A program made the position numbers and the translations under genes. DNA of 64,000 nt from an uncultured Planctomycetota bacterium (GTDB lineage: Bacteria; Planctomycetota; PLA2; JAEUHO01): NCBI GenBank assembly GCA_963752285.1, contig CAVVXN010000001.1, positions 96,001 through 160,000 of the forward strand, written 5' to 3'. Of this stretch, positions 1,431 to 38,260 are shown one piece after another. The stretch's first letter is position 1, and each line of letters starts with the position of its first letter. The notes beneath the pieces were generated by a model. It saw only the letters and a list, made by a program, of their open reading frames with translations. It did no database searches and was not told where the DNA came from.

Positions 1431-1520
1431 GGAGAGGTGGCAGAGCGGTCGAATGCACCGGCTTGCTAAGCCGGCGTACCCGTCAGGGTACCCCGGGTTC
1501 GAATCCCGGCCTCTCCGCCA
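1431..1520 (+). tRNA. tRNA-Ser (anticodon GCT)
   Basis: GGAGAGG/CCTCTCC acceptor stem, CCGGC-TT-GCT-AA-GCCGG anticodon arm, long variable arm, GGTTCGAATCC T-loop, encoded CCA. Confidence 0.97.
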
Positions 1521-36209: not shown

Positions 36210-36268
36210 GCGCGCATTCAAGAATGGTCCGGGGGGCTCGGCCGGAGAGCGACCCCCGGGAGGGCGCC

Positions 36269-37255
36269 GTGCAGAAGATTCGACTGGGAGCGGGCGGTCC
36301 CGAGATCCCCGTGCTGGGCCTGGGTTGCATGGGGATGAGCGAGTTCTACGGCGCCCCGGACGCCGAACGAGCCGTCGCCACGATCCAACACGCGCTGGAC
36401 CTCGGCTGCACGTTCTTCGACACGTCCGACATGTACGGCCGCGGGGAGAACGAGAAGCTCTTGTGCCGCGCCCTCGGGAACCGGCGCGACGAGGCCGTGA
36501 TCGCCACGAAGTTCGGGGTCCGCCGTTCCGCGGATGGCGGGTTCTCGGGCGTCAGCGGGAGCCCCGAGTACGTGCGCCAGGCCTGCGACGGTTCGCTCGC
36601 ACGCCTCGGCACCGACGTGATCGACCTCTACTACCAGCACCGTGTCGATCCCGACGTGCCGATCGAGGACACCGTGGGGGCGATGGCCGAGCTCGTCCGC
36701 GCGGGCAAGGTCCGTCGCCTCGGCCTCTCGGAGGCGGCACCGGACACGATCCGCCGGGCGCACGCCGTGCATCCCATCTCGGCGCTCCAGACCGAGTACT
36801 CGCTCTGGTCCCGCGAGCCCGAGGAGGAGCTCCTGGCCCTCACGAAGGAGCTCGGCATCACGTTCGTGAGCTACAGCCCGCTTGGACGGGGCTTCCTCGC
36901 GGGACGGTTCCACCGCCCCACCGACCTCGACGAGGGCGACGCCCGCCGGCACTTCCCGCGCTTCCAGGCCGGGAACTTCGAGGAGAACCTGAAGATCGCG
37001 GACGCCGTGACGGCGGTCGCGTCCGCGAAGGGCAGGACGCCGGCCCAAGTCGCGCTCGCCTGGGTACTCGGCGGGTCCGACCACGTGGCCGCGATCCCCG
37101 GGACGACCCGGGTCGCACGTATCGAGGAGAACGTCGCCGCGGCCGACCTCGTGCTCACGCCCGCCGAGCGAGAGCAGCTCGAGCGCGCGGCGCCTCCGGG
37201 TCGGGCCGCGGGGACGCGGTATCCCGAGCGCGGGATGCGTACGGTGCACCGGTGA
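36269..37255 (+). CDS. Aldo/keto reductase
   Basis: [54 protein letters not shown]. Confidence 0.96.
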
Positions 37256-37629
37256 CCGGCGCCGCGAACGAGTCGGCGCGGGCCAACCTCGACCGACGCG
37301 GCCGCTGGCTCCGCCTGGGAGCCGGCGTGCTGCTGCTCCCGGCGGTCGCGGGGACGTTCCTCTGGATGGTGGACCGCCACGTGGACCGGGTCGCGCGCCT
37401 CGCGCTCTTCGTGCCGCTCGTCGTCGCGTCGCTCTGCCTGGCGCAGGCGTCCGCCTCGACCTGAGTGGCCCTCGCGCGGCGCGGTCGGCGCGTGGTGGAC
37501 GGCGAGGAGTGTGTGGTCGGGGACGCGGCCGTCGCCGCGGCCCTCCGCGCCCGCGCGGCGCGGATCTGGACCGGATCGCTCCTCGCGGCGGCCGCCGTGA
37601 CGATCGCGCTCCTGCTCGCGCCGGCCTGA
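37252..37629 (+). CDS. Small membrane protein with in-frame TGA at codon 71 (candidate selenoprotein)
   Basis: GTG start overlaps the AKR stop. After TGA 37462-37464 the frame continues 54 codons with GC3-rich codons and a TM helix, ending at TGA 37627-37629 just before the convergent sodC stop. Confidence 0.75.
37465..37507 (+). promoter_or_regulatory. SECIS-like hairpin
   Basis: Upper stem GCGC(37479-82)/GCGC(37488-91) with loop GGTCG; outer pairing CCTCGC(37470-75)/GCGAGG(37502-07). Confidence 0.6.
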
Positions 37630-37633
37630 GGCG

Positions 37634-38260
37634 CTACTCGCTCCGCTTGTTCTCGACCTGCTGGATCACGCCGCAGGCGACGCGCGCGCCCGCGTTGCCG
37701 CTCGGCTGGGTCTTCAGGTCGTCCTCGCCCGCGTGGACGATCACCGCCTTGCCGATGATGGAGTCGGGTCCGTCGAGGCGCATGACCGGGTCGCGCCAGA
37801 CGAGGGTCGCCTTGCCGTCGGCGTCCGCCTCGACGTTCCCCAGGTCACCGACGTGACGGTCCGCCGACGTGCGCGCGCCGTGCTGCTTGTTCGTGGGGTT
37901 GAAGTGGCCGCCCGCGCTCGAGCCGTCCGGCGCGGAGCAGTCGCCCTTCTCGTGGACGTGGAAGCCGTGCTTCCCGGGCGTGAGTCCCGTGATCTCGGCG
38001 CGAACCACCACGACGTCCTTCTCCTGGGAGAAGGTGACGGTGCCCTTTACGTGGTTCCCCTCCGTCGGCTCCAGGTCCGCCGTCGCCTGGAGGCCGGAGG
38101 CCGAGGGGCTCGGCATCGCCTCGGACGGCGACGAGGGCGTCTCGCGCGAGGAGGCCTCGTTTCCGGCGGGCTCGTTCGCATGGTCGGCCGTGTCGGTCCG
38201 ACCGCAGGCGATCAGGCTCGCGAAGAGGACCACCGGCAGGATCGTTCGTGCACATCGCAT
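37634..38260 (-). CDS. sodC: Cu/Zn superoxide dismutase, lipoprotein
   Basis: LIAC lipobox; HGFHVH, SAGGHFNP, HVGDLGN, IVHAGEDD, GNAGARVACG. Confidence 0.96.
   Translation of the reverse strand: MRCARTILPVVLFASLIACGRTDTADHANEPAGNEASSRETPSSPSEAMPSPSASGLQATADLEPTEGNHVKGTVTFSQEKDVVVVRAEITGLTPGKHGFHVHEKGDCSAPDGSSAGGHFNPTNKQHGARTSADRHVGDLGNVEADADGKATLVWRDPVMRLDGPDSIIGKAVIVHAGEDDLKTQPSGNAGARVACGVIQQVENKRSE

What the first reader, a model, noticed from the sequence alone, without database searches (positions are those of the whole stretch)
37252..37629. Candidate selenoprotein: membrane protein with in-frame UGA and an fdhF-like SECIS
Seen: a GTG start coupled to the aldo/keto reductase stop, two TM-like helices, ..[29 protein letters not shown].., then 54 more coding-like codons with a third helix. 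The stop falls 4 bp before the convergent sodC stop, so the read-through ORF fills the gap. After the UGA, a GCGC/GCGC stem carries a GGUCG loop whose GGU is the 7th codon after UGA. Known (recalled): in the E. coli fdhF SECIS the apical GGUC sits at that same offset. I also recall small membrane proteins with QA..T/F-C-VALA.RG, i.e. Cys at this position; this is unverified. Inference: a Sec-containing redox membrane protein between two redox genes, which normal annotation would truncate.
Basis: partly seen in the sequence, partly recalled or inferred. Interest (0 to 1): 0.85.

Follow-up and report, generated by a model that had tools for sequence, protein, structure and literature searches.

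The report
New membrane selenoprotein family gene
This is a small three-helix membrane protein gene whose internal TGA almost certainly encodes selenocysteine; it belongs to a widespread bacterial protein family that is absent from current selenoprotein lists and that routine annotation cuts in half.

Summary
ORF 37252-37629 (+) has a GTG start overlapping the reductase stop, an in-frame TGA at 37462-37464 and 54 more codons. I collected 106 homologues with a TGA at exactly this codon (30 by protein search in the window's phylum, 76 non-duplicate by a DNA-pattern scan, titled as at least 10 other phyla). Cysteine sits there in all 35 Cys forms aligned. It is the only invariant column of a 141-sequence alignment. 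A hairpin with an apical GGU 17-19 nt after the TGA is conserved, covaries, and drives rare-codon use: GGT at Gly78 in 23 of 30 genes, against 10% of Gly codons elsewhere. It is missing from 7 of 7 Cys forms. The genome has selA, selB, tRNA-Sec and a Sec-containing selD. No Pfam or NCBIfam model matches, and none of the 119 families in a 2026 inventory fits. AlphaFold gives a confident three-helix membrane fold (pLDDT 95.5) with no PDB match. Caveat: the window's own hairpin folds no better than shuffled sequence, so the case is comparative. Function is inferred only: a selenol centre at the cytoplasmic membrane face. 8 of 80 homologues are extended; the one read in full is fused to DedA plus a Sec-rhodanese.

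The parts
37252..37629 (+). Selenoprotein gene: 125 codons plus stop, read with TGA-71 as Sec
   Evidence: Homologues span both halves. Same-frame GC3 is 0.97 before and 0.94 after the TGA. dN/dS of the part after the TGA is below 1 in 10 of 10 close pairs.
37252..37255 (+). GTGA: GTG start overlapping the TGA stop of the upstream aldo/keto reductase
   Evidence: It is the only ATG/GTG/TTG between 120 nt upstream and 45 nt downstream of the start of homology.
37462..37464 (+). In-frame TGA = selenocysteine codon 71
   Evidence: The only invariant column (U/C, 141 of 141) in alignment A5. TGA in 106 homologues, TGC in Cys forms.
37466..37505 (+). SECIS-like hairpin. The family-conserved core is GCGC 37479-82, loop GGUCG 37483-87, GCGC 37488-91. 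The MFE fold uses a 2-nt shifted register, 37479-83 paired with 37489-93.
   Evidence: One search gives the fold, which is not above shuffles on its own. Searches give covariation. One search gives the synonymous-codon bias. applies the bSECIS constraints.
37483..37485 (+). Apical GGU (Gly78 codon), 18 nt after the UGA
   Evidence: Same offset as E. coli fdhF. GGT in 23 of 30 and 48 of 76 TGA forms, against 10-12% of other Gly codons in the same genes and 0 of 7 Cys forms.
37294..37374 (+). Helix 15-41 (TM1)
   Evidence: AlphaFold2 model, pLDDT 95.5. Membrane placement is inferred from hydrophobicity.
37387..37455 (+). Helix 46-68 (TM2), carrying near-invariant Gln65 and ending 3 residues before Sec71
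37525..37617 (+). Helix 92-122 (amphipathic start, then TM3)
37627..37629 (+). True stop (TGA), 4 bp from the convergent sodC stop
   Evidence: Homologues end 0-10 codons after the matched region.
36224..37255 (+). Upstream aldo/keto reductase, translationally coupled. The neighbour is not conserved.
   Evidence: An AKR neighbour also occurs in 2 other loci, L076 and L101.
37634..38260 (-). Convergent Cu/Zn superoxide dismutase. The neighbour is not conserved.

Best explanation
The ORF is a real selenoprotein gene and a member of an undescribed family of about 120-residue integral membrane proteins.

Decoding (inferred from the standard bacterial mechanism): when the ribosome reaches UGA-71, SelB carrying Sec-tRNA(Sec) binds the hairpin just downstream, whose apical GGU lies 18 nt after the UGA. 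It inserts selenocysteine, and translation runs 54 more codons to the second UGA.

Protein (model plus inference): N-terminus in the cytoplasm, two transmembrane helices, and Sec71 in the loop right after TM2 at the cytoplasmic face. A short helix, a beta-hairpin and a third transmembrane helix follow. Sec71 lies close in sequence and topology to the near-invariant Asn12, Arg21, Gln65 and Gly78.

Function (my estimate about 0.3): this cluster is a selenol-based redox or sulfur/selenium-transfer centre acting at the membrane surface, in some lineages together with rhodanese and DedA-type membrane proteins.

Shown: the conserved TGA/Cys pair, the conserved and covarying hairpin, the Sec machinery, and the confident fold.
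Inferred: actual Sec insertion, topology and chemistry.
For: 1. TGA/Cys pair.
- With the read-through protein, 17 places in 61 genomes scored E<1e-3, each spanning both halves with exactly one TGA. The next hit (G021) has Cys.
- A profile search found 19 TGA and 1 Cys places in 40 genomes of the order. In a 401-genome phylum sample it found 11 more TGA and 7 more full-length Cys forms.
All 80 fetched translate to family members.
- In the 141-row alignment, U/C71 is the only invariant column.
- 15 of 15 full-length database relatives fetched have Cys there.

2. RNA element.
- For a 7-bp helix in the 30 pattern-free genes, 80.0% of cells pair against 73.6% shuffled (0 of 500 shuffles reach it). 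Covariation is 0.220 against 0.120 (0 of 500). Five of 7 pairs show double changes, and all slid registers score lower.
- The 80 pattern-scan genes behave the same way.
- 27 of 30 TGA forms keep 4 or more contiguous inner pairs; 0 of 7 Cys forms do.
- 85 of 106 meet all four published bSECIS constraints with the ungapped stem alone, against 387 of 2120 codon-shuffled controls. Spacing is 17-19 nt in 103 of 106 (constraints from PMC13188914, Fig. 2 legend).
- Gly78 is GGT in 23 of 30, against 32 of 318 Gly codons elsewhere in the same genes. Arg77 is CGC in 26 of 27 Arg codons, against 130 of 279 elsewhere.

3. Machinery.
- tRNA-Sec scores 70 bits. selA, selB and selD with its own in-frame TGA are present.
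- selA is found in 27 of 28 TGA-form genomes. The two 99%-complete genomes without selA carry Cys forms.

4. TGA is otherwise the ordinary stop: 1153 of 1558 long ORFs end in it.

5. The downstream half is under purifying selection: dN/dS 0.09-0.73 in 10 of 10 pairs.

6. Fold: pLDDT 95.5, pTM 0.85.

7. Functional hints.
- 8 of 80 pattern-scan loci run on at least 140 residues past the Sec. Read in full in one of them (L197), the extension is a DedA/VTT domain plus a rhodanese that carries a second TGA at the known CxU selenoprotein position.
- All 35 Cys forms hold at least one more Cys, against 58 of 106 Sec forms.
Against: - For this window alone the hairpin is no better than chance in a 74% GC context (z -0.29; 73 of 200 shuffles as good). 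Its ungapped upper stem (-6.7 kcal/mol) misses the -7.5 threshold unless the lower stem is counted.
- The stem is built from the codons of a conserved A-R-G-x-R motif, so protein and RNA constraints are partly confounded.
- Three TGA forms (L022, L036, L065) lack the standard register.
- One TGA-form genome (G005, 92% complete) showed no selA.
- The 76 pattern-scan genes were selected by part of the element (CGCGG), so only their 3' arm and outer pairs are independent.
- No selenium incorporation data exist.
- On function: no conserved gene neighbourhood, no family or fold match, and no access to model coordinates, so the Asn12/Gln65/Sec71 cluster is not measured.
Confidence: 0.9

Rival explanations
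1. The TGA is a real stop. The locus encodes a 70-residue two-helix protein and a separate 54-residue one-helix protein that restarts at the GTG right after the stop (TGA-GTG coupling). The hairpin is only a by-product of the conserved A-R-G-x-R codons.
For: GTG follows the TGA in the window and in many homologues. Gene callers report the 64-70-aa product. The window's hairpin is not above shuffles.
Against: The codon after the TGA is GTC, GCC, ATC or GTA, none of them a start codon, in 10 of 30 pattern-free genes. Cys forms are single uninterrupted ORFs with TGC at that codon. A split would not explain GGT and CGC codon selection, covariation, or loss of the stem in Cys forms. It would also not explain why selA-negative genomes carry Cys forms.
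Confidence: 0.04
2. The TGA is read through without selenium, by near-cognate Trp/Cys/Arg insertion or local recoding.
For: No labelling data exist. One TGA-form genome showed no selA.
Against: Homologues without the TGA have Cys, never Trp or Arg (35 of 35). The element meets the bSECIS model at the fdhF offset. The full Sec machinery is present. TGA is the main stop in the genome.
Confidence: 0.04
3. Pseudogene or sequencing/assembly error at one base.
For: Nothing specific. This is the default for any in-frame stop.
Against: The same TGA stands at the same codon in 106 independent genomes. The downstream half is under purifying selection.
Confidence: 0.01

Closest known systems
E. coli fdhF selenocysteine insertion element (bacterial SECIS)
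   Same: The hairpin lies inside the coding sequence directly after the UGA. The apical GGU starts 18 nt after the UGA, as the 7th codon, in both. The element fits the published bSECIS constraints for loop, stem, leading G and 16-37 nt spacing.
   Different: The stem sequence is unrelated (GC-only GCGC arms). The loop is mostly 5 nt (GGUCA, GGUCU or GGUCG) rather than GGUC. No bulged U was looked for. SelB binding is untested.
YgaP-like transmembrane domain (PF11127 / DUF2892), the two-helix membrane anchor of rhodanese YgaP
   Same: Similar layout: a short polar N-terminus with N/S-[ILV]-[DEG]..R..R...G, two transmembrane helices, and a conserved Cys just after the second helix. Both are associated with rhodanese (fusion in L197; an MBL-rhodanese-YgaP_TM gene lies next to L065).
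   Different: No detectable homology. Pfam gives no hit and hhalign between the two alignments gives probability 2%. This family has an extra beta-hairpin and a third helix. The resemblance was first recalled and then tested.
Known membrane or transport-related prokaryotic selenoproteins listed in PMC13188914 Table 1 (for example the putative mercuric transport protein PF02411, YeeE/YedE PF04143, the SO_0444 Cu/Zn efflux transporter NF033936, and rhodanese form 3 CxU NF041203)
   Same: A Sec/Cys pair, a bacterial SECIS, and a membrane location or chalcogen/metal handling. The NF041203-type rhodanese is physically fused to this module in one lineage.
   Different: None of their models matches this protein. 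The Sec context T-U-V..A.RG is not among the listed motifs.
Glutathione peroxidase catalytic centre (Sec with Gln and Asn; recalled, not tested)
   Same: The near-invariant polar residues around the Sec are an Asn and a Gln. Many Sec forms have no second Cys (48 of 106), as expected for a Sec that is recycled by an external thiol.
   Different: There is no sequence or fold relation. This is a helical membrane protein, not a thioredoxin fold. The spatial proximity of the three residues was not measured.

Membership tests
Bacterial selenoprotein gene (Sec-decoding UGA) | In-frame UGA aligned with Cys in homologues, with homology on both sides | tested here: met
   106 TGA forms and 35 Cys forms. 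U/C71 is the only invariant column of 141 rows.
Bacterial selenoprotein gene (Sec-decoding UGA) | bSECIS: 3-9 nt apical loop, 4-16 bp upper stem, G in the first two loop positions, 16-37 nt from the UGA, MFE <= -7.5 kcal/mol (PMC13188914, Fig. 2 legend) | tested here: met
   Family: 85 of 106 meet it with the ungapped stem alone, against 18% of codon-shuffled controls; spacing is 17-19 nt in 103 of 106. Window: 4-5 bp stem, loop GGUCG or GUCGG, spacing 18-19 nt, region MFE -14.6 to -21.6. Its upper stem alone is -6.7, and the fold is not above shuffles.
Bacterial selenoprotein gene (Sec-decoding UGA) | Selection on the RNA element independent of the protein (covariation, synonymous codons, loss in Cys forms) | tested here: met
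   (0 of 500 shuffles reach the observed covariation). (GGT in 23 of 30 against 10% elsewhere). (0 of 7 Cys forms keep the inner stem).
Bacterial selenoprotein gene (Sec-decoding UGA) | selA, selB, selC and selD present in the genome | tested here: met
   All are over the curated cut-offs.
Bacterial selenoprotein gene (Sec-decoding UGA) | Selenium actually incorporated at the UGA | not testable with these tools
   Needs 75Se labelling or mass spectrometry.
Any of the 119 listed prokaryotic selenoprotein families (PMC13188914 Table 1) | Match to the family's Pfam or NCBIfam model | tested here: not met
   Nothing over any curated cut-off for the module. The window protein had no hit at all at E<=1 (Pfam) or E<=10 (NCBIfam). 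Cys homologues at E<=10 (14 in Pfam; the same 14 in NCBIfam) and 13 diverse TGA forms at E<=0.01 gave only scattered sub-threshold hits. Families listed only by cd or PTHR ids (Trx-like, CopZ-like, BtuF, Fe-S oxidoreductase) could not be scanned, but they are soluble folds.
YgaP-like_TM (PF11127) | Sequence or profile similarity to the domain | tested here: not met
   No Pfam hit. hhalign of A5 against 18 PF11127 domains from relatives gives probability 2%.
DUF4395 (PF14340) | Pfam score over the gathering threshold | tested here: not met
   One Cys homologue (P0030) scored 18.1 bits against a cut-off of 24.5. None of the others hit.
Any solved fold | Structural match of the AlphaFold model | tested here: inconclusive
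   Foldseek against PDB: best E 1.7. VIA-align wide: best Z 7.1, generic helical bundles only.

The most novel reading that the evidence does not exclude
This is a widespread, hitherto unlisted integral-membrane selenoprotein. Its Sec, held by invariant Asn, Gln and Arg residues at the cytoplasmic face of the membrane, would relay sulfane sulfur or selenium (or reduce peroxides or disulfides) at the lipid interface. It would work with rhodanese and DedA-type proteins. That would make it a membrane component of chalcogen trafficking or selenium delivery, for which no dedicated prokaryotic system is known (PMC13188914, section 4 passage).
Probability: 0.2. Interest if true: 0.85.

Novelty: new member of a known kind. 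Interest (0 to 1): 0.72.

Why it matters
Few of the families listed for bacteria are membrane proteins, and most known families are soluble thioredoxin-fold enzymes. This family has no Pfam or NCBIfam model and no structural relative. It has 3339 clusters at 50% identity in the protein universe at E<=0.001. Its Sec forms occur in MAGs titled as Gemmatimonadota, Myxococcota, Methylomirabilota/Rokubacteria, Planctomycetota, Chloroflexota, Ignavibacteria and others.

Every Sec form seen in the databases was annotated as a 64-70-residue fragment, so the family is systematically mis-annotated. Adding it would correct selenoproteome counts for soil and sediment phyla. The fusion to DedA and a Sec-rhodanese gives a concrete, testable lead on membrane-associated sulfur or selenium handling.

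Tried and rejected
- Homology to the YgaP-like TM domain was my own recalled lead. It was tested by hhalign and rejected (probability 2%).
- Conserved operon context: 82 neighbour ORFs around 37 loci and 114 flank fragments around 76 loci gave no recurrent partner. AKR occurs next to 3 loci, an AhpC/TSA redoxin in one genus, and esterase PF00756 in one family.
- Single-sequence folding as evidence: rejected, z -0.29.
- Rfam on 37100-37800: 0 hits.
- Fold searches: nothing specific. ESM Atlas: only unnamed clusters.
- The search for related loci with alignment A1 failed because no stretch was conserved enough. I replaced it with a DNA pattern scan.
- The search of earlier findings by place and by sequence: nothing.
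I read Table 1 of PMC13188914 (section 7, parts 1-2) and passages of PMC12013277, but no supplements.
- Not used: sequencing reads, expression data and complex prediction.
Full report
**1. The observation**

The window is 72-78% GC. It lies at G000:C1:96001-160000 in a 4.64-Mb, 5-contig genome.

- A GTG at 37252 overlaps the TGA stop of an aldo/keto reductase (PF00248, E 3e-76).
- Seventy codons follow, then TGA at 37462-37464.
- Fifty-four more codons follow, then TGA at 37627-37629.
- That stop is 4 bp from the stop of a convergent Cu/Zn superoxide dismutase (PF00080).

The two halves have the same strong coding signature in one frame. GC at codon positions 1/2/3 is 0.79/0.54/0.97 before the TGA and 0.87/0.63/0.94 after it.

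GGT is the 7th codon after the TGA. It sits between two GCGC tetramers.

I fetched E. coli K-12 fdhF to check the recalled comparison. It reads TGA CAC GGC CCA TCG GTT GCA GGT CTG, so GGT is the 7th codon there as well.

**2. Is the organism able to decode Sec?**

Yes.
- ARAGORN and Rfam RF01852 find one tRNA-Sec at C1:658182-658276 (70 bits; gathering score 47).
- selA (507 bits), selB (317 bits) and selD (356 bits) are all over their curated cut-offs.
- selD itself carries one in-frame TGA, at C1:736103. The system is therefore in use.
- TGA is otherwise the ordinary stop of this genome. It ends 1153 of 1558 long high-GC3 ORFs.

**3. Homologues**

The read-through protein was searched against 60 relatives plus the genome itself.
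- It gave 17 places with E<1e-3. Each spans both halves and each has exactly one TGA inside.
- The next hit (G021) has none.
- Translation showed one pattern throughout: (C)N(I/L)(G/D)..R.R, two hydrophobic helices, ..Q A . . . T-U-V . . A . R G . R .., an acidic stretch and a third helix.
- The ORFs end 0-10 codons after the match.
- G021 has Cys at the U position.

A profile of 17 sequences (A1) widened the search.
- In the 40 genomes of the order it found 19 TGA places and 1 Cys place: 18 of 28 genomes in the window's family and 0 of 11 in the sister family.
- In a 401-genome sample of the phylum it found matches in 37 genomes. These included 11 further TGA forms in four other families and 7 full-length Cys forms.

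The protein databases hold two kinds of entry.
- Full-length Cys forms of 118-160 aa. All 15 of 15 fetched have Cys at the position.
- Fragments of 64-70 aa that stop right before the TGA, including the window's own predicted product.
- All carry the name 'hypothetical protein' or no name.

A profile search of 1.84 billion cluster representatives found 3339 proteins at E<=0.001 and 1780 at E<=1e-10.

I then scanned 185,579 species genomes with a 19-specified-base pattern taken from the alignment. The pattern matches 18 of my 30 TGA forms.
- All 80 fetched loci translate into clear family members.
- By record title they are:
  - 31 Gemmatimonadota
  - 9 Methylomirabilia/Rokubacteria
  - 8 Myxococcales/Polyangiaceae/Nannocystaceae
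  - 8 'Deltaproteobacteria'
  - 4 Planctomycetota
  - 4 Chloroflexota/Anaerolineae
  - 3 Ignavibacteria
  - 3 Binatia
  - one each of Latescibacterota, Verrucomicrobiia, Zixiibacteriota, Blastocatellaceae, Thermoanaerobaculaceae and Spirochaetaceae
  - 4 unspecific
- Four of the 80 duplicated loci already in hand and were dropped from later counts.

In the final 141-row alignment (106 Sec forms, 35 Cys forms) the Sec/Cys column is the only invariant one. Asn12 (138 of 141), Arg21 (140), Gln65 (140), Ala66 (128) and Gly78 (138) come next.

**4. The RNA element**

On this window alone the hairpin proves nothing. Window 37462-37506 folds at -21.6 kcal/mol, but 73 of 200 dinucleotide shuffles do as well (z -0.29). 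The evidence is comparative.

(a) Pairing and covariation. I tested a 7-bp helix (alignment columns 24-30 with 36-42, loop 31-35).
- In the 30 genes found without any DNA pattern, 80.0% of cells pair against 73.6% in shuffles (0 of 500 reach it).
- The covariation score is 0.220 against 0.120 (0 of 500).
- Five of 7 pairs show changes on both sides.
- Every slid register is worse. The best, at -2, reaches 69.5%, because GCGC repeats.
- The first 16 genes and the 80 pattern-scan genes give the same picture.
- In the 80-gene set the 5' CGC and the GG were fixed by my pattern. The free 3' partners nevertheless pair in 80 of 80, 80 of 80 and 80 of 80 cases.
- Pair 27-39 keeps pairing through 7 double changes.

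(b) Examples of compensatory change. These include ACACGC..GCGTGT, TTGCGC..GCGCAA, TCACGC..GCGTGA and TCCCGC..GCGGGA. Some alter the amino acids on both arms.

(c) Sec forms against Cys forms. 27 of 30 TGA forms have 4 or more contiguous inner pairs. None of 7 Cys forms has. The three exceptions (L022, L036, L065) all have CAG instead of CGC at codon 77 and form shifted or displaced hairpins.

(d) Synonymous codons.
- Gly78 is GGT in 23 of 30 pattern-free genes, against 32 of 318 Gly codons elsewhere in the same genes.
- In the pattern-scan set it is 48 of 76 against 87 of 724.
- In Cys forms it is 0 of 7.
- Arg77 is CGC in 26 of 27 Arg codons, against 130 of 279 elsewhere.

(e) Published bSECIS constraints. 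These are a 3-9 nt loop, a 4-16 bp stem, a G in the first two loop positions, 16-37 nt spacing, and MFE <= -7.5 kcal/mol (PMC13188914, Fig. 2 legend, passage seen).
- Using only an ungapped upper stem, 85 of 106 genes meet all four.
- Codon-shuffled controls meet them in 387 of 2120 cases.
- The spacing is 17-19 nt in 103 of 106.
- The window's ungapped stem (-6.7 kcal/mol) falls just short. With its lower stem it reaches -14.6 (30 nt).

Rfam has no matching family.

The A-R-G-x-R protein motif and the stem share the same bases. Arg80 is present in 101 of 106 Sec forms but only 12 of 35 Cys forms. This suggests the RNA constrains the protein in the Sec forms.

**5. Co-occurrence with the machinery**

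| Genome group | selA found | Not found in |
|---|---|---|
| Other TGA-form genomes searched (28) | 27 | G005 (92% complete) |
| Cys-form genomes (8) | 6 | G401, G205 (both 99% complete) |
| Family-level genomes without the gene (10) | 9 | G008 (57% complete) |

**6. Rival readings**

- Stop plus restart at the following GTG fails. That codon is GTC, GCC, ATC or GTA in 10 of 30 genes, and Cys forms are uninterrupted.
- Read-through without selenium does not explain the element or the Cys-only replacement.
- An error or pseudogene is excluded by conservation. dN/dS of the 45 codons after the TGA is 0.09-0.73 in 10 of 10 close pairs. This is a rough estimate from ungapped, short segments. The N-terminal part is below 1 in 8 of 10 pairs.

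**7. What the protein is**

- The window's protein had no hit at all at E<=1 in Pfam or E<=10 in NCBIfam.
- Fourteen Cys homologues in each library and 13 diverse TGA forms gave only scattered hits below the curated cut-offs.
- The nearest miss is DUF3040 at 23.7 bits against a cut-off of 24.7, in P0004. DUF4395 scored 18.1 bits against 24.5, in P0030.
- AlphaFold2 on the 141-row alignment gives pLDDT 95.5 and pTM 0.85. The model has helices 15-41 and 46-68, Sec71 in the following loop, helix 72-76, a beta-hairpin at 79-88 and helix 92-122.
- Foldseek finds nothing in the PDB (best E 1.7).
- The exhaustive VIA search gives only generic helical bundles (best Z 7.1).
- The ESM Atlas gives unnamed clusters.
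- I suspected a relation to the YgaP-like TM domain (PF11127), whose layout is similar. A profile-profile comparison with 18 such domains from relatives gave probability 2%. I do not file the family there.

A 2026 inventory of 119 prokaryotic selenoprotein families (PMC13188914, Table 1; I read section 7, parts 1-2) identifies each family by a Pfam, NCBIfam or cd model.
- None is a small domain-less membrane protein.
- None of the scannable models matches.
- Full-text searches found no paper on this family. I did not see supplements.

**8. How it probably works**

The decoding step follows the standard SelB/SECIS mechanism. This is inference from the features above.

Topology is inferred from charge distribution and was not computed. 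The N-terminal N-I-G-P-R-x-R-K-R segment and the Arg-rich segment after TM2 are cytoplasmic. That puts Sec71, Asn12, Arg21 and Gln65 together at the cytoplasmic membrane face, with the C-terminus outside. I could not read model coordinates, so distances are not measured.

The chemistry is open. The hints are:
- All 35 Cys forms have at least one other Cys. 29 of 35 have one within 6 residues before Asn12, and 6 of 35 have a C-x8-C arrangement.
- 48 of 106 Sec forms have no other Cys. This fits a Sec that is recycled by an external thiol.
- 8 of the 80 pattern-scan loci continue for at least 140 residues after the Sec. I read one of them, L197, in full.
- There the extension is a DedA/VTT domain (PF09335, E 1.4e-14) and a rhodanese (PF00581, E 1.6e-12). 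The best NCBIfam match of the rhodanese is NF041203, 'rhodanese-related (seleno)protein', at 78.9 bits, below its cut-off of 115.
- That rhodanese carries a second in-frame TGA at the listed CxU position.
- One relative (L065) has an MBL-rhodanese-YgaP_TM gene next door. One genus has an AhpC/TSA redoxin gene just upstream.

Otherwise neighbourhoods vary.

I commit to a selenol-based redox or sulfur/selenium-transfer centre at the membrane surface, at about 0.3. The identity as a selenoprotein gene I put at about 0.9.

**9. Verdict**

It is a new family within a well-known kind: a bacterial selenoprotein with a SECIS and Cys homologues. The family is widespread, systematically truncated by annotation, and of unknown chemistry.

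Noticed in passing
L197:1486-2850 (G419:C226), and 7 similar loci among L078-L157 (L082, L087, L092, L107, L124, L146, L149): Eight loci run on at least 140 residues past the Sec. In L197, the only one read in full, the protein appears to carry two selenocysteines. It consists of the new Sec module, a DedA/VTT domain and a rhodanese with a second TGA at LYCS-U-PNE. A third TGA is the likely stop.
   Followed up: partly
G000:C1:734626-736999 (outside the window): selA and selD are adjacent. selD has its own in-frame TGA at C1:736103, so it is itself a selenoprotein.
   Followed up: partly
Alignment A5, window residue 80 (37489-37491): Some Cys forms have a second Cys nine residues after the first (C-x8-C, 6 of 35). 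Sec forms have Arg there (101 of 106), encoded by the 3' arm of the hairpin. Five Sec forms keep Cys (TGC or TGT, pairing through G-U).
   Followed up: partly
P0174, P0154 (database Cys forms): Two relatives carry an N-terminal extension of about 70 residues with CPxCG...CxKC, which looks like a zinc ribbon.
   Followed up: no
G009 (L024 and L060): One relative has two TGA-form paralogues on different contigs.
   Followed up: no
L037, L058, L059 (one genus): An AhpC/TSA-redoxin gene lies immediately upstream of the family member in three genomes of one genus. One has the Cys form and two the Sec form. L058 also has a multicopper oxidase nearby.
   Followed up: partly
L065:1610-3040: The gene downstream of the family member encodes a metallo-beta-lactamase-rhodanese-YgaP_TM fusion, a persulfide dioxygenase-like architecture.
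   Followed up: no
L150: The C-terminal 25 or so residues diverge from all relatives and the ORF is shorter (44 residues after the Sec). This may be a frameshift or an assembly error in that record.
   Followed up: no
window 1431-1520: tRNA-Ser (GCT) is the only tRNA in the window.
   Followed up: no
G000 whole genome: ARAGORN reports several odd 'tRNA-???' calls with 2- or 4-base anticodons (for example C1:302135, C1:875285, C5:1089802). These are probably false positives in GC-rich DNA.
   Followed up: no
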